The notes: generated by a model from the letters alone, not told the origin. 64,000 bases of DNA from an uncultured Rickettsiales bacterium (GCA_964575095.1 CAZNPA010000002.1:101204-165203); one strand, 5' to 3'; positions 1,055-59,700 are shown, counted from the first letter of the stretch. Translations and numbers: made by a program.

Positions 1055-1112
1055 ACCAGACCCTGCCACCTGACTACGCCGAGGCTTCGCCAAGGCAGGT
1101 TCGGCGGGGCTG
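1055..1112. repeat. REP-like half element (family C) carrying a 31-nt nested mini-palindrome
   Basis: accagaccctgcca-[cctgactacgccgaggcttcgccaaggcagg]-ttcggcggggct matches 4452-4478 (accagaccccgcca|ttcggtggggata) once the insert at 1069-1099 is removed. Confidence 0.7.
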
Positions 1113-1937
1113 ACCTCTGGTAATCACCTTATCTCCTGCATCCAGCGCCCCATCGGCGATCAGCGGCATCTTTTTCACTTTCTCATAAATCGGCGCGAAG
1201 TCGGGCAGGGTTTCGTCGAAGAGTTGCTTAAAACTATCGATGACGAAATAGGTTTTCTGTACGTCGTCGATGCGGTAGTCGCTGCGCATGATGCGCTCCA
1301 AATCGAATTTCACGCGATTGGGAACCGGACTTTCCAGGCAGTACTGCGATTCCTTATACGACGATACGATGCCGGAGCCGTAGATGCGCAGTCCTTCCGG
1401 TGAATTGATGAGGCCGAACTCGACGGTGAACCAATAAAGCCGCTCGATTTCCTTGTCGGCATCGAGCCTATTCGCCTTCATTGCGCCCTTGCCCCATTGC
1501 TCCATGTAATCGGCGTAGACGGGAAGCGCCAGCATCGGCACGTGGCCGAACAGGTCGTGAAAAATGTCCGGCTCCTGCAGGTAGTCCATCTTGGCCGGCT
1601 CGCGTATCCACCACGTCACCGGGAACTGCCGCTTGGCGAGGTGCCCCAGGAACATCGCCGGCGGGATATAGCCCGGCACGGTGACCAGGCGGAAATTGGA
1701 GAGCTTTTGCAGCAGGTCGGAGATGCGCCGCCAGTCGGGAATTTTCTCGGAGCCGGTGACGATGCCGAGCTTCTCGATGGATTCCAGATATTCCCTGCAG
1801 GCGCGGTTCTTCAGGAGCGGTTTCTGCCGTGTACACAGCTTGTTCCACATCGCATGGTCGGCCTCGGTGTATTGCGCCGGATCGAAATCGAACGTGAAAT
1901 CTTCCCGCATTCCCGGCGGATGTTCATCAGCGCGCAT
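1074..1937 (-). CDS. phhA: Phenylalanine 4-hydroxylase
   Basis: Motifs EPDIFHDLFGHVP, RLYWFTVEFGL, IYGSGIVSS. Start ATG 1937 preceded by AAGGAGG. Confidence 0.95.
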   Translation of the reverse strand: MRADEHPPGMREDFTFDFDPAQYTEADHAMWNKLCTRQKPLLKNRACREYLESIEKLGIVTGSEKIPDWRRISDLLQKLSNFRLVTVPGYIPPAMFLGHLAKRQFPVTWWIREPAKMDYLQEPDIFHDLFGHVPMLALPVYADYMEQWGKGAMKANRLDADKEIERLYWFTVEFGLINSPEGLRIYGSGIVSSYKESQYCLESPVPNRVKFDLERIMRSDYRIDDVQKTYFVIDSFKQLFDETLPDFAPIYEKVKKMPLIADGALDAGDKVITRGQPRRTCLGEASA

Positions 1938-1992
1938 GAGTAGCCTCCTTGACTCATTGATTATAACGCGGCTTGATGTTAAATGCCAAGCC

Positions 1993-2415
1993 ATGAAAAT
2001 CGTTGAACTGAAAACCCTGCCCGATCTGCGGCGCATCTATCCGCTGATTAAGCAGCTTAATCCGAAGCTATCCAAGGCGCAGTTTAACGCCCGGCTCAAG
2101 GAGATGCTGGCGGCGGATTATCGTTGCATAGCGGCGGTGGAAGGCGCTAAAATTCTTGGCGTCGCTGGTTTCTGGATCTTCACGCGTTTCTGGTGCGGCC
2201 GTTACATCGAGCCCGATAACGTGGTGGTGGACAAGAAACTCAGAAGCCGCGGCGTCGGCAAAAAACTGATGGTGTGGATCGAGGCCGAGGCCAAGCGGCA
2301 AAAATGCGATATACTGTATTTGACGGCGTACACTCACAATCACGCGTCGCACCGGTTTTATTTGCGCGAGCGATATATTGTTAGAGGTTTTGTTTTTACT
2401 AAGGAGCTACCATGA
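1993..2415 (+). CDS. GNAT family N-acetyltransferase
   Basis: GNAT motif A (VVDKKLRSRGVGKKLM) and motif B (N..SHRFY). ATG 1993; ATGA overlap with hppD. Confidence 0.85.
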   Translation: MKIVELKTLPDLRRIYPLIKQLNPKLSKAQFNARLKEMLAADYRCIAAVEGAKILGVAGFWIFTRFWCGRYIEPDNVVVDKKLRSRGVGKKLMVWIEAEAKRQKCDILYLTAYTHNHASHRFYLRERYIVRGFVFTKELP

Positions 2416-3509
2416 CCGCAACCGCCACTCACCACTCGTCACTCGTCACTAATCCCATGGGCACCGACGGCTTCGAGTTCGTCGAATATGCGGCGCTCGA
2501 CCCGAAACCGCTCGAGACATTATTCACGCAGTTGGGCTTTACCAGAATTGCCAAACATAAATCCAAAAACGTGCATCTGTGGCGTCAGGGCGAGGTCAAT
2601 TTCATCCTGAACGCCGAAAAGGACAGCCATGCCGAAGGATTTTACAACGCGCACGGCCCCAGCGCCAACGCCATGGCGTTTCGCGTCAAGGACACGGCGC
2701 AGGCGGTGCGCCACGCGCGGGCGCTCGGCGTTGAGGTCATCGAAAGCAAGATCGGCGCCGAGGAACTGCACATCCCCGCCATCCGCGGCGTCGGCGGCAG
2801 CCTGATTTTTCTCGTCGACCGCTACGGCGACAAAGGCTCGATTTACGACACCGATTTCCTGCCGCTGCCCGGCGTCGACCAGCATCCCAAGGGCGTCGGC
2901 CTCCGATATATCGACCACCTGACGCACAACGTGTTCCGCGGGCAGATGGATACGCTGGCCGGATTCTACGAGAAGATTTTCAACTTCCGCCAGATCCGTT
3001 ATTTCGACATCGAGGGCAAGCTCACGGGATTAGTCAGCCGCGCCATGACGTCGCCTTGCGGTAAAATCCGCATCCCGATCAACGAATCGTCCGACGACAA
3101 ATCGCAGATCGAGGAATTCCTGCGCGAGTACAAGGGCGAGGGCATCCAGCACATCGCGCTCTCGACCGAAGATATTTATAAAACCGTTGAAGGCCTTAAA
3201 AAAACCGGCATTCGGTTCATGGACCCGCCGCCGGAGACCTATTACGCGAATCTCCCTAAGCGCGTGCCGCACAGCAAGGAGGAAATCTCGCGCCTGAAAC
3301 CGCTGGGAATTCTAGTGGACGGCGCGCCGGAATCCAAACCCGGCGCCAACGACGGCGGCATTTTATTGCAAATCTTCACCAGTACCGTCATCGGCCCGAT
3401 CTTTTATGAGATCATCCAGCGCAAAGGTGACGAAGGCTTCGGCGAAGGAAACTTTAAGGCGCTGTTTGAGTCGATTGAGGAAGACCAGGTCAAGCGCGGG
3501 GTGCTCTAA
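2412..3509 (+). CDS. hppD: 4-hydroxyphenylpyruvate dioxygenase
   Basis: NPMGTDGFEFVE, IDHLTHNV, GEGIQHIAL, LLQIFT, FYEIIQRKG..GFGEGNFKALFESIE. Confidence 0.97.
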   Translation: MTATATHHSSLVTNPMGTDGFEFVEYAALDPKPLETLFTQLGFTRIAKHKSKNVHLWRQGEVNFILNAEKDSHAEGFYNAHGPSANAMAFRVKDTAQAVRHARALGVEVIESKIGAEELHIPAIRGVGGSLIFLVDRYGDKGSIYDTDFLPLPGVDQHPKGVGLRYIDHLTHNVFRGQMDTLAGFYEKIFNFRQIRYFDIEGKLTGLVSRAMTSPCGKIRIPINESSDDKSQIEEFLREYKGEGIQHIALSTEDIYKTVEGLKKTGIRFMDPPPETYYANLPKRVPHSKEEISRLKPLGILVDGAPESKPGANDGGILLQIFTSTVIGPIFYEIIQRKGDEGFGEGNFKALFESIEEDQVKRGVL

Positions 3510-3613
3510 CTGTCATCCCGAGCGTAGCGCAGCGGAGTCGAAGGATCTTCGCAAGTCGCAACGATAAAGATCCTTCGGCTTCGGTCTTACGGCCTCCGCT
3601 CAGGATGACAGTT
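3508..3613. repeat. REP-like palindromic element (family A, GTCATCCYGAGC...GAAGGATCT...AGATCCTTC...GCTCAGGATGAC)
   Basis: 17-bp terminal inverted repeats with 1 mismatch (aactgtcatcccgagcg / cgctcaggatgacagtt) plus inner IR cgaaggatct/agatccttcg. Overlaps the stop codons of both hppD and mrp. Confidence 0.9.
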
Positions 3614-4382
3614 GCGCCGCAATCTCCCTATACATTCCGGTACATTTTCCCTGATACATCTTCCCCCCATCCCCCGCCTCGCGTATCGCCGCATCCGCCG
3701 GTATCTCGCCTAAAAAGGGCGCGCTGAATTCGGCGGCGAAATTTTTTCCGCCGCCGCTGCCGAATAATTCCCCGCTCATGTTTTCAACGACGCCTAAAAT
3801 CGGCACATTCACCTTGATGAACATGGCGGCGCATTTGCGCGCGTCGTTTACCGCCACCGCTTGCGGCGTGGTGACGATGATGGCGCCGGTAAGTGGCACC
3901 AGCTGCGCCATGCTCAGATGAATGTCGCCGGTGCCGGGCGGCATGTCGACAATGAGATAATCCAGCGGCGCGTCCGCGGTTCCCCACTGCGTCAGCCGCA
4001 ATAGCTGCTGCAAGGTTTTGCTGATCATCGGCCCCCTGAATACCGCCGCCTGGTCAGTAATGAACCCCAGCGACATGCATTTGACGCCATAATTCTCCAG
4101 CGGGATCATCTGACCATTTTGGAAATCCGGCTTTCCTTTCAGGGAAAGCATGTGCGGAATGCTGGGCCCATAAATATCGGCATCGAGCAATCCGGCGCGT
4201 TTCCCCGATTGCGCCAGCGCCAGCGCGAGGTTCACCGCCGTCGTCGATTTGCCGACGCCGCCCTTGCCGGAGGCGACGGCGATGATTTTTCTGACATGCG
4301 GCAGCGGCTCGCGGTTCCATACCGCCGGTTTTCTTGCTGCTATCCCCGCACTTGTTGCGGGGTCTGGTTTGTTAGGCAACAT
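3600..4382 (-). CDS. mrp: Mrp/ApbC (NBP35 family) Fe-S cluster carrier ATPase, lacking the N-terminal DUF59-type domain
   Basis: IIAVASGKGGVGKST, LLDADIYGPS, DYLIVDMPPGTGD, VTTPQ, GVVENMS. Start uncertain (ATG 4382 chosen). Confidence 0.9.
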   Translation of the reverse strand: MLPNKPDPATSAGIAARKPAVWNREPLPHVRKIIAVASGKGGVGKSTTAVNLALALAQSGKRAGLLDADIYGPSIPHMLSLKGKPDFQNGQMIPLENYGVKCMSLGFITDQAAVFRGPMISKTLQQLLRLTQWGTADAPLDYLIVDMPPGTGDIHLSMAQLVPLTGAIIVTTPQAVAVNDARKCAAMFIKVNVPILGVVENMSGELFGSGGGKNFAAEFSAPFLGEIPADAAIREAGDGGKMYQGKCTGMYREIAAQLSS

Positions 4383-4479
4383 GGTTAGCAACTCATTGCT
4401 TGAAAATTTCTCTTGTGTATTCCTATATCTATAGCAGCATGTCTTAAAGATACCAGACCCCGCCATTCGGTGGGGATAG
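4340..4479. repeat. Pair of inverted family-C half elements (4341-4367 and 4452-4479)
   Basis: tatccccgcacttgttgcggggtctgg (4341-4367) is the exact reverse complement of 41241-41267. Right half accagaccccgccattcggtggggatag. Confidence 0.85.
4399..4428 (+). promoter_or_regulatory. RpoH (sigma32)-type promoter for hflKC
   Basis: CTTGAA-N17-CCTATAT, matching the alphaproteobacterial RpoH consensus, upstream of protease-quality-control genes. Confidence 0.65.
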
Positions 4480-4488
4480 GAGTAATAA

Positions 4489-5613
4489 ATGGCCTGGGGC
4501 GATAAAGGAGATTGGAACGACGGCGGCCCGTGGGGGAAGCCTTCTGGCGGGCGCGCGCCGGAGGAGCCGCCGTTTGGTGGCGGCGGTCCGACGCCGCAAG
4601 GCCCGGATTTCGACGCGTGGCTGAAAAAAGGCCAGGACACCTACCAGAAATTATTTGGTGGCGGCGAAGGCGGCAAGGGCATCGCGCTTTTGGTGGTGAT
4701 CGGCGCGCTGCTGTGGCTTAGCTCCGGCATTTATTTCGTTGGCGCCGATGAGCAGGGCGTGGTGCAGCGCTTCGGCGCCTATCACCGCACGGTCAGCTCC
4801 GGCCTTAATTACCACCTGCCTTATCCCATGGAGTCGGCGAAAACGCCGCGCGTTACCGTCGTCAATCGCGCTGAGATCGGCTTCCGCTCAGGCGGCTACG
4901 CGCGCAGCAAGGGCGCCGACGGCTCGGTGGCCGAAGAGAGCCTGATGCTGACTGGCGACGAGAACATCGTCGACGTCAATTTCGAGGTGCAGTGGAAAAT
5001 CATGAACGCGCCGAATTTCCTGTTCAACGTGCGCGATCCGGAGGATACGGTGAAAGCCGTGGCCGAAAGCGCCATGCGTGAGGTCGTCGGGCAAACCGAA
5101 ATCGCCACCATCCTCGCCGAAGGTAAACTTGCGGTCGAGCAGGATGCGAAAAAACTGATACAGGCGACGCTGGATAGTTACAAAGCCGGCATCGAAGTGG
5201 TGACGGTCAATCTGCTCAAGGCCGACCCGCCGGCGCAGGTGATCGACGCTTTCCGCGACGTGCAGACGGCGCGCGCCGACATGGAAACCGCGCGCAATCA
5301 GGCGGAAGCCTATAGGAACGATATCCTGCCGCGCGCCCGCGGTGATGCGCAGAAAATGGTCTTGGATGCTGAGGCGTACAAGCAGGAAGTGGTCGCCCGC
5401 GCGCAGGGCGAGGCGGCGCGGTTCTCGTCGGTCTATAACCAGTTCCGGCAGGCCAGGGACGTCACCAAGAAACGCATTTATCTGGAAACGATGGAAGAAA
5501 TTTTACAGGGCATGAACAAGATTATCGTCGAGGGCAAGAACACGCAGGGCGTGGTGCCGTACCTGCCGCTGCCGGAGATTAAAAATAAATCCGTCGAGGA
5601 GACCCCTAAATGA
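4489..5613 (+). CDS. hflK: FtsH protease modulator HflK
   Basis: N-terminal GPWG motif, SPFH domain (LMLTGDENIVDV, AESAMREVVG), VIDAFRDVQ; paired with hflC. Confidence 0.96.
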   Translation: MAWGDKGDWNDGGPWGKPSGGRAPEEPPFGGGGPTPQGPDFDAWLKKGQDTYQKLFGGGEGGKGIALLVVIGALLWLSSGIYFVGADEQGVVQRFGAYHRTVSSGLNYHLPYPMESAKTPRVTVVNRAEIGFRSGGYARSKGADGSVAEESLMLTGDENIVDVNFEVQWKIMNAPNFLFNVRDPEDTVKAVAESAMREVVGQTEIATILAEGKLAVEQDAKKLIQATLDSYKAGIEVVTVNLLKADPPAQVIDAFRDVQTARADMETARNQAEAYRNDILPRARGDAQKMVLDAEAYKQEVVARAQGEAARFSSVYNQFRQARDVTKKRIYLETMEEILQGMNKIIVEGKNTQGVVPYLPLPEIKNKSVEETPK

Positions 5614-6497
5614 AATGGCTTCTTGGCATAGGCGTGCTTGCCCTCTTTGTTGTCGCCAACACGGTGTTTATCGTCGACCAGACCGAACAGGCGCTGATAC
5701 TGCAATTCGGGAAACCGGTGCGCGTGATCGAGCAGCCGGGGCTGCAGTTCAAAACGCCGTTCGTGCAGAACGTCGAGTTTTACGACAAGCGCCTGCTTGA
5801 TTTCGACGCCGAGTCGAAGGAAGTCATCGCCGCCGACCAGAAGCGCCTTTTGGTCGACGCGTTCGTGCGTTACCGCATCACCGACCCGCTCAAGTTCAAG
5901 CAGACGGTGGCCGATGAACGCACGATGAAAAGCCGCCTCAATTCGATCTTGGAATCGAGTTTACGGCAGGTATTAGGCAGCGTGCCGCTGTCGGCGGTGA
6001 TATCGGAAAAACGGCCGGAGATCATGCAGAGCATCCGCGCGCTGGTAAACCAGCAGGCGATGGGGGCGGCGGCCGGCGATAAAGAAAATGTGCGCGGTTT
6101 CGGCATCGAGGTCGTTGACGTGCGCATCAAGCGCGCCGATTTGCCGCCGGCCAACTCGGAAGGCATCTATAAGCGCATGCAGACCGAGCGCGAGCGTCAG
6201 GCCAAGGAATTCCGTGCCCGCGGCGCCGAGGACGCGCAGAAAATCCGCTCGCAGGCCGACAAGGAACGCACGATTCTGCTGGCCGATGCGAAGAAAACCG
6301 CCGAGACGACGCGCGGCGAAGGCGATGGACTGGCCGGCAAGATTTTTGCCGATGCCTTCGGTCAGGACCAGGATTTCTACCAGTTCTACCGCACGATGCA
6401 GGCCTACAAGAAAACCCTGATGGGCAAGGACACAACCATGATTCTTTCGCCCGACAGCGAATTTTTCAAGCTGTTGGACAAGGGTGGGGAACGTTAA
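5610..6497 (+). CDS. hflC: FtsH protease modulator HflC
   Basis: ALILQFGKPVR, KRLLVDAFVRYRI, IEVVDVRIKRADLP, RMQTERER, FYRTMQAY. Confidence 0.96.
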   Translation: MKWLLGIGVLALFVVANTVFIVDQTEQALILQFGKPVRVIEQPGLQFKTPFVQNVEFYDKRLLDFDAESKEVIAADQKRLLVDAFVRYRITDPLKFKQTVADERTMKSRLNSILESSLRQVLGSVPLSAVISEKRPEIMQSIRALVNQQAMGAAAGDKENVRGFGIEVVDVRIKRADLPPANSEGIYKRMQTERERQAKEFRARGAEDAQKIRSQADKERTILLADAKKTAETTRGEGDGLAGKIFADAFGQDQDFYQFYRTMQAYKKTLMGKDTTMILSPDSEFFKLLDKGGER

Positions 6498-6526
6498 TTT
6501 TAGCTCCTCCCTACGGGGGAGGGGAC

Positions 6527-6556
6527 TTGATAACCCGCATTGAGTTTTTATATAAT
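6527..6556 (+). promoter_or_regulatory. sigma70-type promoter for degP
   Basis: TTGATA-N18-TATAAT. Confidence 0.5.
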
Positions 6557-6592
6557 ACTGTCAGTGGTCATTCTTTTGAAATAGGATCTCGT

Positions 6593-8044: not shown

Positions 8045-9037
8045 TTAGGCGCGACCCGGTTGCGCTGCTGCGGAGGCTCTTTCCTCGGCCAGCTGAGCGG
8101 TGTGATGTCCGACCACCGGTTTTTCCGCGCCGGTTTTTGGGCCATAAATTTCATTCATGGTCTGGTCGATTTCCGGCTGCATTGCAGCATCAATCTGGCG
8201 GTTCTTATACCGCTGGTACAGATAGCCGCCTATTCCGGCTGCCGCCATGGTCGCCACCATCAGTGCTTTGCCGGACCCCTGCAGTTCCTTGAAGACGCGG
8301 ATGGGCGCGGCCAGTACGCCCTTGATGCCGCCTTTCCCGAATACTCTGCTGGCGGTGCTCGCCTCGGCAACTGCGTGCTCTGCTTCTTTCACAACTCCGG
8401 GGCTTACGATATCCAGCGCCTTTTTAGATGCCGGCGCTACTTGCCCCATCGCTTTTTCGGCCATTTCCACGGCGCGAATTTTTGACGAACGCATTGCGTG
8501 GAGAGCTTCCTCCCTTGCCGCGACCGCCGCGTCAATGGTCTCTTGCGGCAGGCGTTGTCCATGCTGGTCGAATAATTTCACCGGAGGCAAATCGATTGTT
8601 TCTGCGCTGATGACGTGTTCGGGGTTCGTAAGCGCTGCTTTTAAATGATCTGCGACGTGGTTTTCCGTTTCGTGCATGGCCATCGCGTCCATCTCATTGC
8701 CGCTCATTAAAAACTCCGGTTTATCCCCATTGTTCATGCGATCTGCGGCGGATTTTTCGACGGGAATCTTCCGGCGCTTTGCCTGTGCCGCCGCGATGGC
8801 CTCGAACCCGTCCATTCCCGTGGTTTTCTGGATGTTGTCGGCGGCGGTTTTTACGGTCTTTACGCTGCCGCCCAGCAGCTTGATGACATAGCCGGTGGCG
8901 AAAAGATAAGCGCCGCCAATAGCCGCTGACACGCCTGAGAGCGCTTGCGTAAATATATTGGTGGTGGCGTCGATCTTGCCGACAAGCCGTTCTGCTTCCG
9001 CTCTGCTTGCTTTCGGTGAATCTTGACTTTCGGCCAT
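8045..9037 (-). CDS. Hypothetical protein with two Gly/Ala-rich hydrophobic helices
   Basis: 330-aa ORF with RBS-like GGGGA upstream; fills the degP-serB gap; no family motif recognised. Confidence 0.75.
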   Translation of the reverse strand: MAESQDSPKASRAEAERLVGKIDATTNIFTQALSGVSAAIGGAYLFATGYVIKLLGGSVKTVKTAADNIQKTTGMDGFEAIAAAQAKRRKIPVEKSAADRMNNGDKPEFLMSGNEMDAMAMHETENHVADHLKAALTNPEHVISAETIDLPPVKLFDQHGQRLPQETIDAAVAAREEALHAMRSSKIRAVEMAEKAMGQVAPASKKALDIVSPGVVKEAEHAVAEASTASRVFGKGGIKGVLAAPIRVFKELQGSGKALMVATMAAAGIGGYLYQRYKNRQIDAAMQPEIDQTMNEIYGPKTGAEKPVVGHHTAQLAEERASAAAQPGRA

Positions 9038-9144
9038 AATGTATCCCCTGGCGTTGTTGTTTCGTATCTATCTGATTCTAACAAAAAAATGCCTACTAAA
9101 TATTAAGATTTAATGACAATTGGCGCCGCCGAATAAATCGTTAT

Positions 9145-11349: not shown

Positions 11350-11376
11350 TAATCTTCCTTTTGGCGTAGTATGCCG

Positions 11377-11406
11377 TTGACCCTGTTATCGTGAAAAGAT
11401 TACACT
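11377..11406 (+). promoter_or_regulatory. sigma70-type promoter for ilvC-like operon
   Basis: TTGACC-N18-TACACT. Confidence 0.45.
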
Positions 11407-14219: not shown

Positions 14220-14249
14220 TTCCCCTCTCCCGCTTGCGGGAGAGGGGAA
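14220..14249. terminator. Perfect GC-rich hairpin (REP-like or terminator) after leuA
   Basis: ttcccctctcccgc-tt-gcgggagaggggaa, 14-bp arms. Degenerate relatives at ~6503-6525 and ~18804-18826. Confidence 0.6.
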
Positions 14250-19225: not shown

Positions 19226-19834
19226 ATGAACTTGTTGCCTTTAAAGCAGCTTTTGGCCAGACACGGCATCAGCCAGACCGATCTCGCGCATATTTTAGGG
19301 CGCGATAAGGCGGTGATTACCAACCTTTTTCAGGGAAAAAGGCGGCTTAAGGCCGATGAAGCCATGGTGATTGCGCGACGTATCGGCGTGCCGGTGGCGC
19401 AGATTCTGGGCATACAGGAGCAGCGCGGCGGCCTTAATGAACCGCCGCTCTTGATTCCGTTCCAGCATGAGCCGCAGTCGGGTAAGAAACTGGCCAACGT
19501 CGTCAAAAAAGAGGGGAAATTCTATCTTGAAATAGAGGAAAGCAAAGGCTATTCGCCCAAGGCCTATGCACTCGAAGCACGCGACGACAGCATGAACCTC
19601 TCCGGCATTTTACCCGGCGATATCGTGATTTCTGAGCTTGACCGCGCCTGCAAGCGCGGGCAAATCGTCGTCGCCCAGCATTACCAGGGCCGCGGCGCCA
19701 AAACCATCCTGCGCCTGTACGAGCCGCCGTTTCTAATGCCGCATTCGACCACGGCGTCGTTCAAGCCAATCCATCTCGATAAAGAAGAAGCGCGCGTCAT
19801 CTCGCCGGTCGTGAAATTGATACGGGGATATTAG
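19226..19834 (+). CDS. XRE-family HTH / S24 (CI/LexA-like) transcriptional regulator
   Basis: N-terminal HTH (GISQTDLAHILG.DKAVIT.L..GKRRL); C-terminal S24-like AYAL.ARDDSM...GILPGDIVI. AGGAGG RBS. Confidence 0.85.
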   Translation: MNLLPLKQLLARHGISQTDLAHILGRDKAVITNLFQGKRRLKADEAMVIARRIGVPVAQILGIQEQRGGLNEPPLLIPFQHEPQSGKKLANVVKKEGKFYLEIEESKGYSPKAYALEARDDSMNLSGILPGDIVISELDRACKRGQIVVAQHYQGRGAKTILRLYEPPFLMPHSTTASFKPIHLDKEEARVISPVVKLIRGY

Positions 19835-19854
19835 TAATTGGTCATTGAAAAGAG

Positions 19855-19925
19855 GGTAATTGGAAAAAAGGTAATTAGTAATTGGAAATAGCATTCCAAT
19901 TACCACCTTTCCAATTACTAATTAC
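19855..19925. repeat. Inverted GTAATT-based repeat array between convergent genes
   Basis: 18-bp perfect IR gtaattagtaattggaaa (19871-19888) / tttccaattactaattac (19908-19925), with extra ggtaattgg units. Confidence 0.85.
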
Positions 19926-32006: not shown

Positions 32007-32032
32007 CCGGGGTGGGAAGGTTCCCACCCCGG
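32007..32032 (+). terminator. Strong hairpin after flagellin (no U-tract)
   Basis: ccggggtgggaa-gg-ttcccaccccgg, 12-bp arms. Confidence 0.6.
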
Positions 32033-32446: not shown

Positions 32447-32563
32447 ACCTTGCCGAAGGCATGCTTCTTGCTTTGTCTTCGGCGGTTAAGAGGTGTACAC
32501 TATAGCCGTCCGGGCTTGTTCAGGCCGGACGGCGTAGGTACCGGTCTTTAAAAGGATGGGCAT

Positions 32564-50085: not shown

Positions 50086-50150
50086 CGTCAAACACGGTTA
50101 GCAGTTTGCGAGGCAAAAATTGTAGCTGACGGACATTAATAAAGTATTTC

Positions 50151-50236
50151 CGTCATCCCCGCTTTATGCGGGGATCCAGAGCCAAATGAACCATTTTTCG
50201 TGTTGCCCTAGATCCCCGCACGAGGAGAGGATGACG
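50151..50236. repeat. Palindromic element (family B, GTCATCCCCGC...GCGGGGATC)
   Basis: 29-nt arms cgtcatccccgctttatgcggggatccag / ctagatccccgcacgaggagaggatgacg; the right arm encodes the SDR C-terminus. Confidence 0.85.
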
Positions 50237-51002: not shown

Positions 51003-51074
51003 CAAAAAGTAACCATTGACAGGATATAATAGAACTGTAACCAGAAGCATAAAGAAATAGCACTTAGGAATCGA

Positions 51075-51620: not shown

Positions 51621-51624
51621 CCAG

Positions 51625-51648
51625 CCCCGCACTTGTTGCGGGGTCCGG
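51625..51648. repeat. Family-C half element
   Basis: ccccgcacttgttgcggggtccgg, one mismatch to 4344-4367. Confidence 0.85.
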
Positions 51649-51664
51649 TTCCTTTGGCTATAGT
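51636..51664 (+). promoter_or_regulatory. Probable leaderless sigma70 promoter of recJ
   Basis: TTGCGG-N17-TATAGT-N6-ATG; no SD; the -35 hexamer lies inside the repeat. Confidence 0.55.
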
Positions 51665-51670
51665 CGGCGG

Positions 51671-53437
51671 ATGTTAGCCGTATCCAAAATCGAGGCGCCG
51701 CCCTTATCGCTGACCGGAAAATTCTGGGCGGTGCGCGCGGCGGATGAAAAAAATATTCTGACGCTGGTGCAGCGCTTCGGCCTGCCGGAAATCGTGGCGC
51801 GCGTGCTGGCGGTGCGCGGCGTTGCGTTCGACGATGTTGAGAATTTCCTCAATCCCAACCTCAAAAATTCCCTGCCCGATCCGTCGCATCTTTTGGATAT
51901 GGATAAGGCGGCCGAGCGCGTGGCCAAAGCCATCACCGGCGGCGAGCGCATCGCCATCTTCGGCGATTACGATGTCGACGGCGCAACATCGTCGGCCTTG
52001 TTGATGCGGTTCCTGCGCGCGGTGGGGAGCGACCCCGTCGCCTATATCCCCGACCGCATGAAGGAAGGCTACGGCCCCAACGCACCGGCGCTGCTCCAAT
52101 TAAAAAAAGAAGGTGCGGCGCTGGCGATTACCGTCGATTGCGGCACGCTGGCGTTCGAGCCGCTCGAAGCGGCGCATGCGGCGGGACTCGATGTCATCGT
52201 CGTCGATCATCATATCGGCGAAGCACGCATGCCGAAAGCGCATGCGATCATCAATCCCAACCGCCTCGACGAAACTTCGCCGCACAAACAACTGGCGGCA
52301 GTCGGCGTGGCGTTTTTATTGGTGGTGGCGGTGAATAGAAAATTGCGCGAGATGGGATATTTTGCCACGCGCGCCGAGCCCGATCTCAAGCAATGGCTCG
52401 ATTTGGTGGCATTGGGCACGGTGTGCGATGTTGTGCCGCTTACCGGCGTCAACCGTGCCTTCGTGGCGCAGGGCTTAAAAATCATGGCGGCGCGCGGCAA
52501 TCTTGGAATGAAGACCGTGCTCGACATGGCCAAGGTCGACGCCAAGCCGGGAACCTATCACGCCGGGTTCATCATCGGCCCCAGGATCAACGCCGGCGGC
52601 CGCGTCGGGAAATCGGATCTGGGCGTGCGCCTCCTTACCACCGAAGACGAGGCCGAGGCGCTAGGGCTGGCCAGGGAACTCGAACAGCATAACGCCGAGC
52701 GCAAGGCCATCGAGGCGAACGTGCTCGAAGAGGCGATGCAGCAGGCCGAACACATGAGCGCTGAGGCGAAGATATTGGTCGTCTCTGCCAAGGGCTGGCA
52801 CCAGGGCGTGCTGGGCATCGTCGCCGGAAGGATAAAAGAGCGGTTCCAAAAACCGGCGGCGGTCATTGGCGTGCAAGATGGCATCGGCAAAGCCTCGGCG
52901 CGGTCGGTGGATGGATTCGATATGGGAGCGGCAATCATCGCCGCGCACGGGAGCGGGTTGCTGCTGGCAGGCGGCGGCCACGCCATGGCGGCGGGATTCA
53001 CCGTCGAAGAAAATAAAATCGCGGCGCTGATCGAATTCTTGAACCAGCACGCCAAAAACATTCCGGCGGCGCAAAAGCAGCTTACGCTCGACGGCGCGCT
53101 TTCCATCGGCGGCGTAACACCGCAGCTGATGGATACGCTGGAGCGGCTGGGCCCGTTCGGGCAGGGAAATCCGTCGCTGAAATTTGCGGTTTATAACGTC
53201 ATCAACCTGCGGCCGGAATGGACCAAAGACGGGCAGCACCTCCGCACGCCCCTCATCGACCCGTTAAGCAACGCCCGCCTTTCCGCCATCGCCTTCCGCG
53301 TCGCGGATACCAAACTGGGCGAGGCGCTGATGGCGACGCGCGGCAAAAAAATCGCCGTTTGCGGCCAGCTCAAGGCCGACGAATGGAACGGCAAACGCAA
53401 CGTCAGCATGACGATTGAGGATATAGGGACGTGTTAA
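51671..53437 (+). CDS. recJ: ssDNA-specific exonuclease RecJ
   Basis: IFGDYDVDG, PDR..EGYG, ITVDCG, IVVDHH, DLVALGTVCDV, GPRINAGGR, GGHAMAAG. Confidence 0.97.
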   Translation: MLAVSKIEAPPLSLTGKFWAVRAADEKNILTLVQRFGLPEIVARVLAVRGVAFDDVENFLNPNLKNSLPDPSHLLDMDKAAERVAKAITGGERIAIFGDYDVDGATSSALLMRFLRAVGSDPVAYIPDRMKEGYGPNAPALLQLKKEGAALAITVDCGTLAFEPLEAAHAAGLDVIVVDHHIGEARMPKAHAIINPNRLDETSPHKQLAAVGVAFLLVVAVNRKLREMGYFATRAEPDLKQWLDLVALGTVCDVVPLTGVNRAFVAQGLKIMAARGNLGMKTVLDMAKVDAKPGTYHAGFIIGPRINAGGRVGKSDLGVRLLTTEDEAEALGLARELEQHNAERKAIEANVLEEAMQQAEHMSAEAKILVVSAKGWHQGVLGIVAGRIKERFQKPAAVIGVQDGIGKASARSVDGFDMGAAIIAAHGSGLLLAGGGHAMAAGFTVEENKIAALIEFLNQHAKNIPAAQKQLTLDGALSIGGVTPQLMDTLERLGPFGQGNPSLKFAVYNVINLRPEWTKDGQHLRTPLIDPLSNARLSAIAFRVADTKLGEALMATRGKKIAVCGQLKADEWNGKRNVSMTIEDIGTC

Positions 53438-55127: not shown

Positions 55128-56345
55128 ATGGCCATCGAAGTCCGCAACATCAAAAAAGCCTTCGGCGAATTCTCGGCGCTGAACGACGTTTCTTTGCGCG
55201 TCGAGGAAGGCGAGCTGATCGCGCTCCTCGGCCCCTCCGGCTCCGGCAAGACGACGCTCCTTCGCATCATCGCCGGCCTTGACGTTGCCGATTCCGGGCA
55301 GGTCTTGATCGACGGCGTCGAAACCAGCCGCATGCAGGTAAGCGAGCGCAAGGTCGGCTTCGTGTTCCAGCATTACGCGCTGTTCAAGCATATGACGGTG
55401 TTCGACAACGTCGCCTTCGGCCTTCGCGTGCGCCCCAAGGAAGTGCGCCTGTCGCCGCAGGACATCAGCCGCCGCGTTCTATCGCTTTTGAAGCTGGTGC
55501 ATATCGACCAGTTCCGCGACCGTTATCCGTCGCAGCTTTCCGGCGGTCAGCGGCAGCGCGTGGCGCTGGCACGGTCGCTGGCGGTCGAGCCCAAGCTGCT
55601 GCTTCTCGACGAGCCGTTCGGTGCGCTCGACGCCAAGGTCAGGAAAGAATTACGCCGCTGGCTGCGCCGCCTGCACGACAACATGAAGATCACCAGCATC
55701 TTCGTCACCCACGACCAGGAAGAAGCGATGGAAGTCTCGAACCGCGTCGTGGTGATGAACAGCGGCCGTATCGAACAGGTGGGGACGCCGGAACAGGTTT
55801 ACCACCAGCCGGCCAGCGGCTTCGTATACGATTTCCTCGGCAACTATAACGAATTCATCGGCTGGAAGGACGAGCAGGGCACGGTTCACCTGGCCGAGGA
55901 TGATCTGTGGCAGGCGAAAAAATCTGCCGCCGCACCGGAAAAAACGGCCTCCGCCGGCTGGCTGTCGCGCTATCCCGAATTGACGGGCGTGCTGCGCCGC
56001 TTCGTGCCGAGGCTGCTTACGCCGGAAAGCGCCCATGCCCACGCGCCGCCCGGCGCCAGCAAGCAGGAAGTGCGGAAGGCCCTTACCGAGCGCGGCACGC
56101 CGGTGCGCGTGTTTGCCCGTCCGCACGAAATGTTCGTCACCAAGACGCCCGACACCGAGCACGAATACATCCCGGTCGAGGTCATCCATATCAATCCGGC
56201 CGGGCCGCTCGCCAAGCTGGAGCTGCAGCGCAAAAACAATTTGATCCTGCAAGCCGAAATCCCCAAAAGCATTTTGGATTCGCTTTCCATCCGAAAAAAC
56301 GATCACGTCTTCGTGCGGCCGAAACAGATTAGAGTCTTTGAATGA
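55128..56345 (+). CDS. cysA: Sulfate ABC transporter ATP-binding protein CysA (with C-terminal insertion)
   Basis: [55 protein letters not shown]. Confidence 0.95.
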
Positions 56346-56908
56346 ACCCAAAAAACATCCCCAACTATCTCACCTACCTGAGGATCGCCGCCATTCCGGC
56401 GCTGATTATGGTATTTTATTTGAAAGGCCAGTGGGGCTATGTGCTGTCGGCGGGGATATTTTTGGTTGCCAGCGTCACCGACTGGCTGGACGGCTATGTC
56501 GCCCGCGCGCTGGCGGCGCAATCAAATATCGGGCGTTTCCTTGATCCCATCGCCGATAAGCTGCTGGTGGCAACCGCTTTGATGTTACTGGTCGGCGAAG
56601 GCCGCGTCGATTATGCCGACGGACGCGCCATGATGATCCCGGCGGTGGCTATCGTCTGCCGAGAAATTCTGGTATCGGGCTTGCGCGAGTTCCTGGCCGA
56701 AATCAGGATCAGCGTGCCGGTGTCGCAGCTCGCCAAATGGAAAACCGGCGTGCAGATGACGGCGATATTCCTGCTGCTGCTCGCCCACGGCGGTCCCGGC
56801 TGGCTCTATGCCGGCATTTTAGGAAATCTTTTACTCTGGGCGGCGGCGCTGCTCACGCTATTCACCGGCTATGCCTATGTGAAAACGGGTTGGAAGTATC
56901 TTGAATAA
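56342..56908 (+). CDS. pgsA: CDP-diacylglycerol--glycerol-3-phosphate 3-phosphatidyltransferase
   Basis: [48 protein letters not shown]. Confidence 0.95.
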
Positions 56909-56970
56909 GAGGGATTGGGGTAAAAAGAAAATTAAATAAATTTTTCCCTAATCCCCAAAGCCTAATCCCT
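56909..56970. repeat. GGGATT[A/G] heptamer element between convergent pgsA and ilvE
   Basis: gagggattgggg ... ttccctaatccccaaagcctaatccct; the reverse complement is 25/26 identical to 63944-63969. Confidence 0.8.
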
Positions 56971-57842
56971 TATTTCCTCACCAAATCCCCGTACGCCTGC
57001 ATCAGCGTTTCGGTGACGCGGCCGACCTGGAACTGTTGGTCGCCGATCTGGCCGACGGGCGTGACCTCGGCGGCGCTGCCGGTTAAGAAGACTTCCGATA
57101 CATTTTTAAGTTCCTCCGGCTTGATGTGCCGCTCGACGACTTTCATGCCTTTATCTTTCGCCAGCTGCATTACCGTCTGGCGGGTGATGCCGTTTAAGAA
57201 ACAGTCGGCAGTCGGCGTATGCACGGCGCCATCCATCACCAAAAATAAATTGGCGCCGGTGGCCTCGGCGAGATAGCCGCGGTAATCGAGCATCAAAGCG
57301 TCGTTATAACCTTCGGCTTCGGCGGTGTTTTTGGCCATGGTGCAGATCATATAGAGGCCCGCGGCTTTGCTGGCCACCGGCGCCATGTTGGGCGCGGGAC
57401 GCGTCCATTTTGACCATTGCAATTTGAGACCGCGCTCCTTGGCTTCCTTGCCGAAATAGCTCGGCCATTCCCAGGTAGCGATGGCAACGTGGATCTTGGT
57501 GCCTTTGGACGCCACCGACATCATCTCGCTGCCGCGCCAGGCGAGCGGTCTGAGGTAACCGTTGACGATACTCTGTTTTTTGATCAGTTCTTTTTTGGCC
57601 GCATCCAGCTCCTCGACCGAAAAAGGAATTTTGAAATCCAGAAGCTCTGCCGATTTGTGCAGGCGCTGGCTATGCTCGCGCGATTTGAAAATCTTGCCGT
57701 TGTAGGCGCGCTCGCCCTCGAACACCGCCGATGCGTAATGCAGGCCGTGCGTCAGCACGTGTACTTTGGCATCACGCCAGGGTACGAATTTTCCATCGAA
57801 CCAGATTACGCCATCGCGGTCGTCGAAGGGAATTATGGTCAT
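56970..57842 (-). CDS. ilvE: Branched-chain amino acid aminotransferase
   Basis: HGLHYASAVFEGERAY, GYLRP, KAAGLY, EATGANLF, L.GITRQTV, EVFLTGSAAEVTPV. Confidence 0.96.
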   Translation of the reverse strand: MTIIPFDDRDGVIWFDGKFVPWRDAKVHVLTHGLHYASAVFEGERAYNGKIFKSREHSQRLHKSAELLDFKIPFSVEELDAAKKELIKKQSIVNGYLRPLAWRGSEMMSVASKGTKIHVAIATWEWPSYFGKEAKERGLKLQWSKWTRPAPNMAPVASKAAGLYMICTMAKNTAEAEGYNDALMLDYRGYLAEATGANLFLVMDGAVHTPTADCFLNGITRQTVMQLAKDKGMKVVERHIKPEELKNVSEVFLTGSAAEVTPVGQIGDQQFQVGRVTETLMQAYGDLVRK

Positions 57843-57850
57843 TTTATGTC

Positions 57851-58621
57851 CTATGGTTTCAATACAATCGCAGAAATCTGGCGGCCGTACGCGGTTTCAT
57901 TGCGCAGCGTCGCCCGCCGATAACTGAAGAAAAGATTTTCTTCCAAACACGTATCGTTCGCAAGCACATTTATGTGGCCGATGCCGCTTTGCAGCAACTG
58001 CGCCCTGGCATAGGCCTTAAGGTCGAACAGGTAATGCCCTTCGCGCGTCGAGGGGATGAAATAACCGTCGTTCTTTGCGTCGTCTTGCAGGAACCGGTCG
58101 CGGAATTCGCCGCTGACCTCATAGGAATATTGCTCAATGGCCGGACCGATGGAAGCAATGATATTCCCCGGCGTCGCGCCCAATTTTTTCATGGCCGCGA
58201 CACTGTTTTCGATAACGCCGCCGATGGTGCCTTTCCATCCGGCATGGACTGCGGCGATGACTTTCGCCTTGTCGTCGACAAGCAAAATCGGCACGCAATC
58301 GGCGGTCAGCACGCCGATGGCGATACCGGGGACATTCGTCACCAGCGCATCGCCTTTGGGTGCTTGCACGATCGTCCACGGTTTTTCGATGATTACGGCA
58401 TCCGCGCTGTGGGTTTGGTAGGCGTTGCATAGATTCTCGGCCTTCACGCCCAATGTCCGCGCCACGAAAAAGCGGTTCTTCTCGACGCGGGTGGCGATAT
58501 CGCCTGATCCGTAACCGCAATTCAAAAATGCGAACGCGCCTTCGCTGACGCCGCCCTCACGCGTGAAGAATCCGTGGTTGATGCCGGGAAGTTCCGAGAG
58601 CAGGGGACAAAGGACGCGCAT
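57851..58621 (-). CDS. pgeF: Peptidoglycan editing factor / purine nucleoside phosphorylase (YfiH/PgeF)
   Basis: HGFFTREGGVS, QTHS, GDALVT, LTADCVPILL, AAVHAGWKG, IGPAI, FFSYRR. Confidence 0.95.
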   Translation of the reverse strand: MRVLCPLLSELPGINHGFFTREGGVSEGAFAFLNCGYGSGDIATRVEKNRFFVARTLGVKAENLCNAYQTHSADAVIIEKPWTIVQAPKGDALVTNVPGIAIGVLTADCVPILLVDDKAKVIAAVHAGWKGTIGGVIENSVAAMKKLGATPGNIIASIGPAIEQYSYEVSGEFRDRFLQDDAKNDGYFIPSTREGHYLFDLKAYARAQLLQSGIGHINVLANDTCLEENLFFSYRRATLRNETAYGRQISAIVLKP

Positions 58622-59700
58622 CAGAAGCCCTCCGGCCTGGGATGGCCTTGACGCACGATGCATATGGCTTTGAATAAATCACCCATCTGCTCCATCGATA
58701 CCAGCCGTTCGACGCCGAGCGCAATCGAGATTTTTTGCGCGTCGCCTATGCCTTCGCATAATTTCGCCATGCGCGCCCTGACGCCCAGCACTGTCAAAAA
58801 TATTCCCTGCGGTACGGCGCCATAAGCCGCCGCGCCTGCGGTTGCCGCTGCCGCCTTGAGCATATCGAAATCGACGTGGCAGGTAAGGTCGGCCGTGCCC
58901 GGTTCGGCTAGCGGATCGTGATATTGGTGCGCACGCACGGCCTGTAGCGTATCCGTGCGCGAGCCGCCTTCGTAACCGTAATCGATGACCAGCGCCGCGC
59001 CGCCATGTGTTTTGATGTGTGCGCCGATGGAGGTGGCGATGGATTCGGCGGCTTCGCTATATTCTATTGTCATTCCCGCGAAAGCGGGAATCTTATCTAA
59101 CCGTTTGCGCAATTCTTGATTTAAGATTCCCGCTTTCGCAGGAATGACAAATATAAATTTATTATCTTCCATATTCACCATCCGCTCTTTCCACTCCCCA
59201 TCCCACACAAATTGCCGAACCGGCAGCGCGTCGAAAAATTCGTTGGTGACGAGCAGCAACGGTTTTTTCGGAATCTCGGAGAAATCGCGGTGCCATTCGA
59301 TGCGCGGGTGCTTGCCCGAAAGCGCCTGCCATTGTTTTTGTTGCAGTACCGGGCTAGTTTCGATGAGGTGAACGGAAACGGCGTCGTGGAACCCGGCGAT
59401 ATTCTTTGTTGCGCGCAGCATGTCGGCCATCAGTGTGCCTCGCCCCGGCCCCAGCTCCGCCAGCGCACATTCCGGTTTGCCCATCTTGTGCCATTCTTCG
59501 GAGAGCCAAGCGCCGATCAATTCACCGAACACCTGGCTGATCTCCGGCGCCGTGGTAAAATCGCCTTTGACGCCTAAAGGATCTTTACGCATGTAATAGC
59601 CGAATTCGGGATGCGACAGCGCCAGCTCCATATATTCGGCGACAGTGACCGCGCCTTTTTGAGAGATAAAGTCTACGAGGCCGTTCGTTTTGGGCGGCAT
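58621..59700 (-). CDS. NDUFAF7/MidA-like SAM-dependent methyltransferase with in-frame palindrome insertion
   Basis: YM..AL.HP..GYY, GDFTTAPEISQVFGELIG, ELGPGRGTLM, NEFFDALPV, IDYG, DLTCHVDF, MGDLFK. Confidence 0.93.
   Translation of the reverse strand: MPPKTNGLVDFISQKGAVTVAEYMELALSHPEFGYYMRKDPLGVKGDFTTAPEISQVFGELIGAWLSEEWHKMGKPECALAELGPGRGTLMADMLRATKNIAGFHDAVSVHLIETSPVLQQKQWQALSGKHPRIEWHRDFSEIPKKPLLLVTNEFFDALPVRQFVWDGEWKERMVNMEDNKFIFVIPAKAGILNQELRKRLDKIPAFAGMTIEYSEAAESIATSIGAHIKTHGGAALVIDYGYEGGSRTDTLQAVRAHQYHDPLAEPGTADLTCHVDFDMLKAAAATAGAAAYGAVPQGIFLTVLGVRARMAKLCEGIGDAQKISIALGVERLVSMEQMGDLFKAICIVRQGHPRPEGF
59067..59150. repeat. In-frame RPE/dRS3-like palindrome (family B), 84 bp
   Basis: 29-bp arms with one mismatch (ttgtcattcccgcgaaagcgggaatctta / taagattcccgctttcgcaggaatgacaa), 26-nt loop; encodes VIPAKAGI...IPAFAGMT. 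Confidence 0.95.

What the first reader, a model, noticed from the sequence alone, without database searches (positions are those of the whole stretch)
1055..59150. Modular palindromic-element system that has colonised gene ends and coding sequence
Seen: at least nine copies of related GC-stem palindromes: family A 3508-3613; family B 50151-50236 and 59067-59150; family C 1055-1112, 4341-4367, 4452-4479, 41153-41267 and 51625-51648; family D 41766-41848. Some units are identical over 27 nt 37 kb apart. They supply coding residues to four housekeeping proteins (PhhA C-term, Mrp N- and C-term, SDR C-term, an NDUFAF7-like internal insertion), lie next to the hflK RBS, and appear to supply recJ's -35 box. 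Several have hairpin loops carrying nested mini-palindromes. Established: REP, Neisseria dRS3 and Rickettsia RPE elements are non-autonomous, and RPEs can insert in-frame. Inference: this is a recently active, multi-family, nestable system creating new protein termini and promoters. No mobilising enzyme is in the window.
Basis: partly seen in the sequence, partly recalled or inferred. Interest (0 to 1): 0.8.

Follow-up and report, generated by a model that had tools for sequence, protein, structure and literature searches.

The report
CGTC-type hairpin repeats at gene ends
The window carries several families of short hairpin-forming DNA repeats of a kind already described (CGTC-tagged REPs, the same kind as Neisseria dRS3/NTS and Rickettsia RPE-4/-6); they sit at gene ends and add a few codons to four ordinary proteins, so the pattern is real but mostly known biology.

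Summary
Families A, B and C are at the stated coordinates, are far beyond chance and fold as strong hairpins. Family D and the unit at 1055-1112 are not significantly structured.

A, B and C are best read as CGTC-tagged REPs (Di Nocera 2013), equivalent to NTS/SRM repeats (Chenal 2025). That superfamily already includes dRS3 and RPE-4/-6. Its known features include inverted dimers, several families per genome, positions within 20 bp of ORF ends, donated stop codons and in-frame dimers of 20-30 codons.

The likely partner enzyme is a small GIY-YIG ssDNA nuclease (Ssn). None is in the window. In related MAGs, C-type units directly flank such genes. In 80 metagenome loci, 53/72 genes have a GTC-headed hairpin upstream and 43/70 have one downstream. 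That layout matches the window's dimers, with the gene in place of the spacer.

All four coding contributions are confirmed against orthologues. The recJ -35 claim is weak (8/12 matches). "Recently active" is not shown: identical units recur in distant MAGs, and the Mrp and NDUFAF7 inserts lie at orthologous sites in diverged relatives.

Verdict: new members of a known kind, moderate interest. The most interesting residue is an insertion hot spot in the NDUFAF7 loop.

The parts
3510..3613 (.). Family A inverted dimer. It consists of two TGTCATCCYGAGCG...TCGAAGGATC units with heads outward. It fills the convergent HPPD/mrp spacer and supplies mrp's last 3 codons and its TGA stop.
   Evidence: z -5.9. 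The same kind of dimer occurs in L030, L053, L107, L117 and L124.
50151..50236 (.). Family B dimer. The left unit is CGTC-ATCCCCGC-TTTAT-GCGGGGAT-CCAG and the right unit is decayed. It supplies the last 9 codons and the stop of the SDR gene (minus strand).
   Evidence: I3; z -5.1.
59067..59150 (.). Family B (NTS-like) dimer, 84 nt or 28 codons, in frame inside the NDUFAF7/MidA-like gene. It encodes VIPAKAGILNQELRKRLDKIPAFAGMT.
   Evidence: I5; z -10.2. The left unit is 3 mismatches from the NTS consensus.
4341..4479 (.). Family C inverted dimer filling the divergent mrp/hflK spacer. The left unit (4341-4368) is translated as part of the Mrp N-terminus (PDPATSAG). The right unit (4452-4479) abuts the hflK RBS.
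   Evidence: (z -4.9).
41153..41267 (.). Family C inverted heterodimer. A long-loop unit (41153-41197) pairs with a canonical unit (41240-41267). It fills the whole spacer between the convergent DUF2671 and usg-like genes.
   Evidence: I4; z -4.2.
51625..51649 (+). Single family C unit. It lies 5 nt after the LOG-family gene's stop and 22 nt before the recJ start (ATG at 51671).
   Evidence: (z -3.2).
1055..1112 (-). Family C unit of the CCGAATGG loop type, interrupted by a 31-nt insert. It supplies the last 13 codons and the stop of phhA.
   Evidence: The fold is weak (z -1.4).
41765..41852 (+). Family D. This sequence directly follows tRNA-Lys(CTT) (41689-41764). It is not a CGTC REP. It resembles the leader that precedes a second type of small GIY-YIG gene after a tRNA or tRNA 3' remnant in L063 and L016. 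No such gene is present here.
   Evidence: (z -0.8).

Best explanation
Families A, B and C are CGTC-tagged repetitive extragenic palindromes, equivalent to NTS/SRM repeats. Each unit has a short oriented head ((C/T)GTC, or the variant CTAT/CCAG in family C), a G+C-rich hairpin with a 7-9 bp stem and a 4-5 nt loop (or a longer loop holding an inner hairpin), and a short tail. Most copies are inverted dimers with the heads at the outer ends.

They are non-autonomous. The protein that recognises them is most likely a roughly 97-aa single-domain GIY-YIG ssDNA endonuclease of the Ssn family, encoded elsewhere in this genome. Its own gene is typically bracketed by the same two inverted units. On that view the dimers in the window are gene-less miniatures of that cassette.

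Shown here:
- the anatomy of the units;
- their non-random occurrence;
- presence/absence differences at orthologous sites;
- the association between the GIY-YIG gene and the units in relatives.

Established by others (Chenal 2025): Ssn binds the hairpin in ssDNA and cuts just upstream of the head.

Inferred:
- that Ssn, or another ssDNA process, actually copies the units to new sites;
- that insertion leaves no target duplication;
- that surviving copies are those at tolerated places, namely 3' ends, spacers between genes, protein termini and a surface loop. There the units may also act as transcript-end hairpins.
For: Match to the published definitions:
- B1 reads CGTC / ATCCCCGC / 5-nt loop / GCGGGGAT / CCA. 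B2 reads TGTC / ATTCCCGC / GAAA / GCGGGAAT.
- These fit the CGTC-REP description read.
- B2's left unit is 3 mismatches from the NTS consensus.

Position, as described for CGTC REPs:
- A, the 41153 dimer and the 1055 unit sit between convergent genes within 0-9 nt of the stops.
- Two elements donate stop codons.
- One dimer of 28 codons lies in frame.

Family distribution:
- C-type units elsewhere carry TGTCA heads and match the SRM search sequence.
- A- and C-type elements co-occur in the same MAGs.

Link to the enzyme:
- Pfam-confirmed GIY-YIG ORFs (E 1e-12 to 1e-13) are flanked by C-type units in L037, L098 and L130.
- In 80 metagenome loci seeded with that protein, a GTC-headed perfect hairpin lies upstream in + orientation in 53/72 loci. 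One lies downstream in - orientation in 43/70, and both occur in 32/62.
- The background is 0.116 per kb.
- 29/80 of these loci hold an NTS with at most 1 mismatch.

Mobility:
- Empty orthologous sites exist in L124 and L125, and a filled one in L126.
- No target-site duplications are visible at any junction.
Against: - The strict SRM search sequence gives 0 hits in the window. B2 fails on its tail, B1 on its loop, and the window's C units lack the GTC head. That head matters for Ssn cleavage in Neisseria.
- No Ssn gene is in the window, and none could be tied to this genome.
- Membership of the GIY-YIG proteins in cd10448 could not be tested here, because neither CDD nor the SsnA sequence was available.
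- No one has shown that Ssn mobilises the repeats.
- Copy number in this genome is unknown.
- Family A fits the CGTC definition only loosely, because its stem is long and interrupted.
Confidence: 0.72

Rival explanations
1. They are REPINs. On this view they are doublets of GTAG-type REPs copied by a RAYT (an IS200/IS605-like Y1 transposase) encoded once in the genome.
For: The inverted-doublet architecture with a spacer is the same as in REPINs (abstracts listed). No target duplications are seen. The elements sit at gene ends.
Against: The heads are CGTC, TGTC or CTAT, not GTAG. Di Nocera 2013 reports that CGTC REPs lack a RAYT association. In three MAGs the gene bracketed by C-type units is a GIY-YIG gene, not a Y1 transposase.
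Confidence: 0.05
2. They are classical MITEs. On this view they are deletion derivatives of an insertion sequence, moved by a DDE transposase that recognises the terminal inverted repeats.
For: The elements are 84-139 bp long, have terminal inverted repeats and an A+T-rich centre, and show presence/absence differences between relatives.
Against: There are no target-site duplications at any of seven junction pairs. Single units occur on their own (51625; the Mrp N-terminus in relatives). The terminal repeats are themselves hairpins shared across phylum-level distances. No transposase was found in the window or next to units in the loci inspected.
Confidence: 0.05
3. They are not mobile. On this view they are hairpins that arose and are maintained in place as terminators, mRNA stabilisers or protein-binding sites, and their similarity reflects convergence on a binding motif.
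For: They lie at 3' ends. The unit sequence is strongly conserved across distant MAGs. At the orthologous NDUFAF7 site, different lineages keep perfect 8-bp stems despite different stem sequences.
Against: No terminator-like T-tracts follow the units. Units lie inside coding sequence and in a divergent promoter region. Empty sites occur in the closest relatives. The same spacer holds different families in different lineages. Units bracket a nuclease gene in the manner of a transposon.
Confidence: 0.1
4. The units serve mainly as attachment or target sites for other mobile DNA. Examples would be IS110/IS1111-family elements or filamentous prophages, as reported for dRS3 and for REPs in Pseudomonas and Coxiella. 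On this view that role, not Ssn, explains their persistence.
For: The literature read reports that dRS3 is a target of a phage recombinase and that REPs are IS targets. The exact NTS core occurs in 109 IMG/VR stretches.
Against: No IS or prophage interrupts any unit in the window. Being a target explains neither their spread nor the bracketing of the GIY-YIG gene.
Confidence: 0.05

Closest known systems
CGTC-tagged REP superfamily (Di Nocera, De Gregorio & Rocco 2013, PMC3733652)
   Same: - CGTC/TGTC head, 8-bp stem beginning AT, 4-5 nt loop and CCA tail (family B).
- Inverted dimers with 20-100 bp spacers, often heterodimers.
- Several families in one genome.
- Alphaproteobacterial hosts, including Micavibrio.
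- Copies within 20 bp of convergent ORF ends, and donated stop codons.
- In-frame dimers of 20-30 codons.
   Different: - Family C has a CCCCGCA stem, a CTAT/CCAG head in this genome and a TCYGGT tail.
- Family A has a long, interrupted stem.
- Long-loop subtypes with variable inner hairpins appear in none of the passages of that paper read here.
NTS/SRM repeats and the Ssn GIY-YIG ssDNA nuclease (Chenal et al. 2025, PMC11893778)
   Same: - B2's left unit is 3 mismatches from the NTS consensus CGTCATTCCCGCGMAVGCGGGAATCYRG.
- In relatives the same unit types bracket a roughly 97-aa single-domain GIY-YIG gene in the NTS-gene-NTS arrangement.
   Different: - No ssn gene is in the window.
- The strict SRM pattern matches none of the window's units.
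- The host is an uncultured alphaproteobacterium in which natural transformation, the role shown in Neisseria, is unknown.
Rickettsia palindromic elements (RPE; Ogata et al. 2000). RPE-4 and RPE-6 are CGTC-4 and CGTC-1 according to Di Nocera 2013.
   Same: - In-frame insertion of a palindromic repeat in a housekeeping protein.
- The reading frame is kept, and the predicted position is an excursion between two strands.
   Different: - The classic RPE-1 is longer (about 100-150 bp) and unrelated in sequence.
- Here most copies are extragenic, and the coding contributions are mostly short termini.
REPIN-RAYT systems (Bertels & Rainey 2011)
   Same: - Doublets of inverted hairpin units with a spacer.
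- Non-autonomous elements with a single-copy partner gene bracketed by the same units.
- Long persistence at orthologous sites.
   Different: - The head is CGTC rather than GTAG.
- The partner enzyme is a GIY-YIG nuclease rather than an HUH/Y1 transposase.
Coxiella QMITE2 (Wachter et al. 2018, PMC5896051)
   Same: - Overlaps the 3' ends of genes, extends a protein C-terminus in frame, and can donate promoter boxes.
   Different: - QMITE2 carries a GTAG REP, has 7-11 nt direct repeats and is 150-190 bp long.

Membership tests
CGTC-tagged REP (Di Nocera 2013) | Unpaired terminal head CGTC (or TGTC/CCTC). | tested here: met
   B1 has CGTC. B2 and A have TGTC. The C unit at 1112 has GTCA. The other C units in the window have CTAT or CCAG instead, although C units in other MAGs have TGTCA.
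CGTC-tagged REP (Di Nocera 2013) | Stem of 8-9 bp beginning AT, loop of 4-5 nt, tail about CCA. | tested here: inconclusive
   Met by B1 (8 bp, loop 5, CCA) and by B2 (8 bp, loop 4, tail CTT). C has a 7-bp CCCCGCA stem, loop 5 and tail TCYGG. A has a long interrupted stem.
CGTC-tagged REP (Di Nocera 2013) | Many dispersed copies per genome, mostly as inverted dimers. | tested here: inconclusive
   Five dimers and two single units lie in 64 kb. The genome-wide count was not obtainable.
CGTC-tagged REP (Di Nocera 2013) | Located mostly after ORFs, close to 3' ends. | tested here: met
   Five of seven A/B/C elements lie 0-9 nt from, or overlap, a stop codon.
NTS/SRM-Ssn system (Chenal 2025) | Unit matches the NTS consensus or the SRM search sequence. 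| tested here: not met
   The strict SRM pattern gives 0 hits in the window. The best NTS match is B2's left unit with 3 mismatches. Orthologous and related units in L121, L123, L126 and L130 do match.
NTS/SRM-Ssn system (Chenal 2025) | A single-domain GIY-YIG (cd10448) gene in the same genome, flanked by the units. | not testable with these tools
   The window has no GIY-YIG ORF. The rest of the 394-kb contig could not be fetched. None of the top 120 homologues lies on it. In relatives the association is strong.
NTS/SRM-Ssn system (Chenal 2025) | The nuclease binds the hairpin as ssDNA and cuts upstream of the head. | not testable with these tools
   This is a biochemical assay. Only the predicted ssDNA hairpins are available.
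REPIN-RAYT | GTAG head and a RAYT gene bracketed by the units. | tested here: not met
   No unit has a GTAG head. The bracketed genes in L037, L098 and L130 are GIY-YIG genes.
Classical MITE | Target-site duplication flanking terminal inverted repeats. | tested here: not met
   No direct repeats are present at the junctions of A, B1, B2 or either C dimer.
RPE-like in-frame insertion | The insert is absent from some orthologues, the frame is kept and the host protein is otherwise conserved. | tested here: met
   NDUFAF7: a 28-codon insert is absent or only vestigial in P0019, P0041, P0066, P0096 and P0120. Mrp: an 8-codon insert is absent in P0122 and P0123.

The most novel reading that the evidence does not exclude
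The units may be kept in register with a lineage-specific nuclease, rather than simply inserted and left to decay.

Supporting observations:
- At the same nucleotide position of NDUFAF7, six lineages with DNA in hand carry an NTS-type insert. Five of them (window, L121, L122, L123, L208) carry different dimers, each with perfectly compensated 8-bp stems (ATTCCYGC, ACCCCCGC, ATGCCAGC, ATCCCGGC, ATCCCTGC). The sixth (L207) has a collapsed, partly decayed single unit.
- The Mrp N-terminal unit is 100% canonical in the window although the insert is shared with relatives of about 70% protein identity.

This would mean either site-specific re-insertion (homing to a half-site such as CCCCGCA or to an existing unit) or gene conversion among copies. 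Either would amount to co-evolution of an Ssn-type nuclease and its genomic sites, acting even inside essential genes.
Probability: 0.2. Interest if true: 0.6.

Novelty: new member of a known kind. Interest (0 to 1): 0.33.

Why it matters
The finding extends the CGTC-REP/NTS world to an uncultured alphaproteobacterial lineage (Rickettsiales- or Micavibrio-like by best hits). It gives three extra genomes in which a C-type variant brackets a small GIY-YIG gene. It also documents a protein loop (NDUFAF7/MidA) and a protein N-terminus (Mrp) that repeatedly host such repeats in frame. For annotation it explains odd protein termini, over-extended ORFs and the spurious peptides VIPAKAGIQ, IPAFAGMT and PDPATSAG. 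It does not reveal a new kind of element. The open question remains how these repeats are copied.

Tried and rejected
- Retrieving the window's own contig to count copies and look for the enzyme failed. The protein is not on record.
Copy numbers therefore cannot be given.
- Searching homologues of the L037 GIY-YIG for one on a 394,044-bp contig found none in the top 120.
- Rfam gave no family for any element, at either the gathering or the E-value threshold.
- The published SRM pattern gave 0 hits in the window. I kept the assignment on anatomy and on related loci, but scored that membership row as not met.
- A literature search for the repeat-encoded peptides found nothing relevant.
- QMITE2 of Coxiella was considered and rejected as a relative, because it carries a GTAG REP and direct repeats.
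- The pattern TGTCATYCYNNGMG with 1 mismatch is not informative on its own: 2 hits against 2.1 expected.
- The C core was absent from viral contigs.
- I did not count covariation at the NTS-type NDUFAF7 inserts. Independent insertion of pre-formed hairpins would give the same signal as selection in place.
Full report
**1. What is in the window**

The window is 57% G+C and encodes ordinary housekeeping genes:
- phhA, HPPD, a short mrp, hflK/hflC and degP;
- miaA, ilvC, a leuA-like gene, mreB/mreC and PBP2;
- a lexA-like gene, dksA and a flagellar cluster;
- a DUF2671 gene, a usg-like gene, tRNA-Lys and an aldehyde dehydrogenase;
- astB, an efflux system, an SDR and a LOG-family gene;
- recJ, ABC permeases, NDUFAF7/MidA-like, lgt and cox genes.

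Best protein hits are to MAGs labelled Alphaproteobacteria, Rickettsiales or Pseudomonadota. The closest relatives reach only 67-85% protein identity.

**2. The observation**

Every element is at the stated place.

Family C:
- The unit is (C)TAT/CCAG-CCCCGCA-loop-TGCGGGG-TCYGGT.
- The copies at 4341-4368 and 41240-41267 are identical (I4).
- The tail decamer occurs 5 times against 0.12 expected.
- Two pairs form inverted dimers with A+T-rich spacers (4341-4479 and 41153-41267).
- One copy is single (51625-51649).
- One copy (1055-1112) is interrupted by 31 nt.

Family B:
- The two elements are inverted dimers of CGTC/TGTC-AT(T/C)CCCGC-loop-GCGGG(A/G)AT units.

Family A:
- This is an inverted dimer of TGTCATCCYGAGCG...TCGAAGGATC units.

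Folding:
- As single strands all of these fold far better than shuffles, with z from -3.2 to -10.2.
- The interrupted unit (z -1.4) and family D (z -0.8) do not.

Nested loops:
- They are real and conserved. The long-loop C subtype CCCCGCATAAGC-[variable hairpin]-GCRCATTGYGGGGTCYGG recurs in L007, L020 and twice in L126.
- A-type units in L030, L107 and L117 carry inner GGCC-N4-GGCC hairpins.

**3. What kind of thing it is**

Di Nocera et al. 2013 (read) define CGTC-tagged REPs as follows:
- head CGTC, TGTC or CCTC;
- stems of 8-9 bp beginning AT;
- loops of 4-5 nt;
- tail CCA;
- mostly inverted dimers, often heterodimers, with 20-100 bp spacers that may hold small stem-loops;
- predominantly in Alphaproteobacteria, with several families per genome.

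They equate CGTC-1 with Neisseria dRS3, and CGTC-1 and CGTC-4 with Rickettsia RPE-6 and RPE-4. They also report:
- copies within 20 bp of both convergent ORFs;
- stop codons donated by repeats;
- intragenic dimers encoding 20-30 residues;
- N-terminal cases that may be annotation artefacts;
- no dedicated transposase.

Family B meets this definition feature by feature. Families A and C are variants of it.

Chenal et al. 2025 extend dRS3 to the oriented 28-nt NTS and the degenerate SRM. They show that a small GIY-YIG protein, Ssn, is encoded between such repeats. It binds them only as ssDNA and cuts upstream of the head.

B2's left unit is 3 mismatches from the NTS consensus. The strict SRM pattern hits nothing in the window:
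- B2 fails on its last base.
- B1 fails on its loop.
- The window's C units lack the GTC head.

I record that as a failed membership row. The resemblance is otherwise close, and C units in other MAGs (TGTCA-CCCCGC...) do match the pattern.

**4. The partner enzyme, tested on related sequence**

A phmmer screen of all ORFs in the window and the fetched loci used a recalled GIY-YIG consensus as a lead only. It found nothing in the window. It did find ORFs in L037 (a Micavibrio MAG) and L098 (MAG REEB114) that Pfam confirms as GIY-YIG (E 3e-13 and 1e-11).

Both are directly flanked by C-type units. In L098 there is one unit on each side, in inverted orientation, and the downstream unit even supplies the protein's tail (...PDPATSAGL).

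I then seeded a metagenome scan with an alignment of this protein's homologues. The 80 loci returned show the following:
- A GTC-headed perfect hairpin lies within 250 bp upstream in + orientation in 53/72 loci.
- One lies downstream in - orientation in 43/70.
- Both occur in 32/62.
- The distal flanks show 0.116 per kb.

In addition, 29/80 loci hold an NTS with at most 1 mismatch, and L130 is bracketed by C-type units.

The layout is cgtc-unit-ccag [gene] ctgg-unit-gacg. That is exactly the layout of the window's dimers, with the gene replaced by a 26-85 nt spacer. Whether this genome has such a gene could not be tested.

**5. Coding contributions, tested against orthologues**

PhhA:
- It aligns with Chromobacterium PAH (1ltu) up to residue 275 of 288.
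- The remaining GQPRRTCLGEASA is read from the unit.
- The orthologue in L126 has an unrelated tail and no unit.

Mrp C-terminus:
- CTG TCA TCC TGA comes from family A.
- The 85%-identical relative (L124) has an A unit at the same place.
- L126 has a B dimer plus a C unit there, and L125 has a different palindrome family.
- The site persists while the families turn over.

Mrp N-terminus:
- The gene is the short form.
- The only in-frame start upstream of the conserved RKPAVW is ATG at 4382, so the C unit is translated (MLPNKPDPATSAGIAARKPAVW).
- The same insert, intact or decayed, is in P0124, P0125, P0127, P0132, P0138 and P0143 (65-74% identity).
- It is not in the closest relatives P0122 and P0123. 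Their DNA still reads AACCCCGCA at the junction, which is the proximal stem arm.
- That pattern is best explained by an old insert with later partial deletions.

SDR:
- Homologues end at query positions 249-258 of 264.
- TSSSPRAGI and the stop are read from B1.

NDUFAF7:
- B2 is a 28-codon in-frame dimer.
- In an AlphaFold model (mean pLDDT 86) it is an excursion between strands 181-185 and 211-214.
- DNA from five relatives shows NTS-type inserts with the left head after the same host residue and the right head before the same conserved Glu (L208 is read one nucleotide out of register). Unit variants and spacer lengths differ, and every insert is in frame.
- L207 has a collapsed single double-headed unit with the same right junction (ATGACAATAGAA) as the window.
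- Across 120 homologues the same loop also hosts other repeat types (VIASERSERGDP..., LPSPSRGEG...).

**6. Claims that do not hold up**

"Recently active":
- Identity between copies cannot date activity here, because the same 25-nt C unit is identical in at least 9 MAGs of different labelled classes.
- Turnover is real: there are empty sites in the two closest relatives. Its direction and age are open.

recJ -35:
- recJ starts at ATG 51671.
- TTGCGG-17-TATAGT would place the transcription start on that A. It matches only 8/12 positions and is not called by the scan.
- recJ may simply be co-transcribed with the LOG gene 50 nt upstream.

Family D:
- It follows tRNA-Lys directly and is not significantly structured.
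- It aligns with sequence that, in L063 and L016, lies between a tRNA (or a tRNA 3' remnant) and a second type of small GIY-YIG gene.
- In the window the gene is absent.
- I treat D as a separate, poorly understood item.

**7. Verdict**

The pattern is real and well observed. It belongs to a described superfamily for which a cognate nuclease family has now been described. What remains unknown, here as in the literature, is how the units are copied.

The most interesting leftover is the recurrence of intact, lineage-specific units at orthologous coding sites.

Noticed in passing
window 56933-56973 (-), 60458-60560 (+), 63937-64000 (+, cut by the window end): A further palindromic family at gene ends. 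It consists of GGGATTAGGGATTAGGCKTTAGGGATTAGGGAA, an A+T-rich centre and a CCC-rich return arm. It has no Rfam family; the only hit is a sub-threshold miRNA-hairpin match.
   Followed up: partly
window 19834-19925: An inverted repeat built from GTAATTGG motifs fills the spacer between the convergent lexA-like and dksA genes.
   Followed up: no
window 14220-14249 and 32007-32032: Two very strong hairpins with 13-bp and 11-bp stems lie just after genes. The first is of the CCCTCTCCC/GGGAGAGGG type. That type also fills the mrp 3' spacer in L125 and is inserted in the NDUFAF7 loop of other lineages, giving LPSPSRGEG peptides.
   Followed up: partly
window 41765-41852; L063 5045-5150 (-); L016 3870-4010 (-): In two MAGs a family D-like sequence lies between a tRNA (or a tRNA 3' remnant) and a roughly 80-aa GIY-YIG gene of a second type (Pfam E 1e-13 to 1e-14). 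In the window it follows tRNA-Lys with no such gene.
   Followed up: partly
NDUFAF7 homologues P0001-P0120; window 59067-59150: The same protein loop hosts at least three unrelated repeat-derived peptide types in different lineages. L207 shows a collapsed single double-headed unit at the same junction as the window.
   Followed up: partly
IMG/VR loci L209-L288 and beyond: The exact 24-nt NTS core of B2 (GTCATTCCCGCGAAAGCGGGAATC) occurs in 109 viral or prophage stretches. The C core occurs in none.
   Followed up: no
L098 3289-3630 (-): The GIY-YIG ORF bracketed by C-type units has no clean ATG start in frame. An upstream ATG lies in another frame, so the gene may be frameshifted.
   Followed up: no
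window 138-1046 (+), 8045-9037 (-), 43386-44606 (-), 60551-60913 (-): Long ORFs with no Pfam match. Some may be real genes of unknown function.
   Followed up: no
window 32478-32508, 51656-51666, 59802-59832: A short shared motif, CTATAGCCG or its complement, lies near gene starts (D14). It may be a -10-like box.
   Followed up: no
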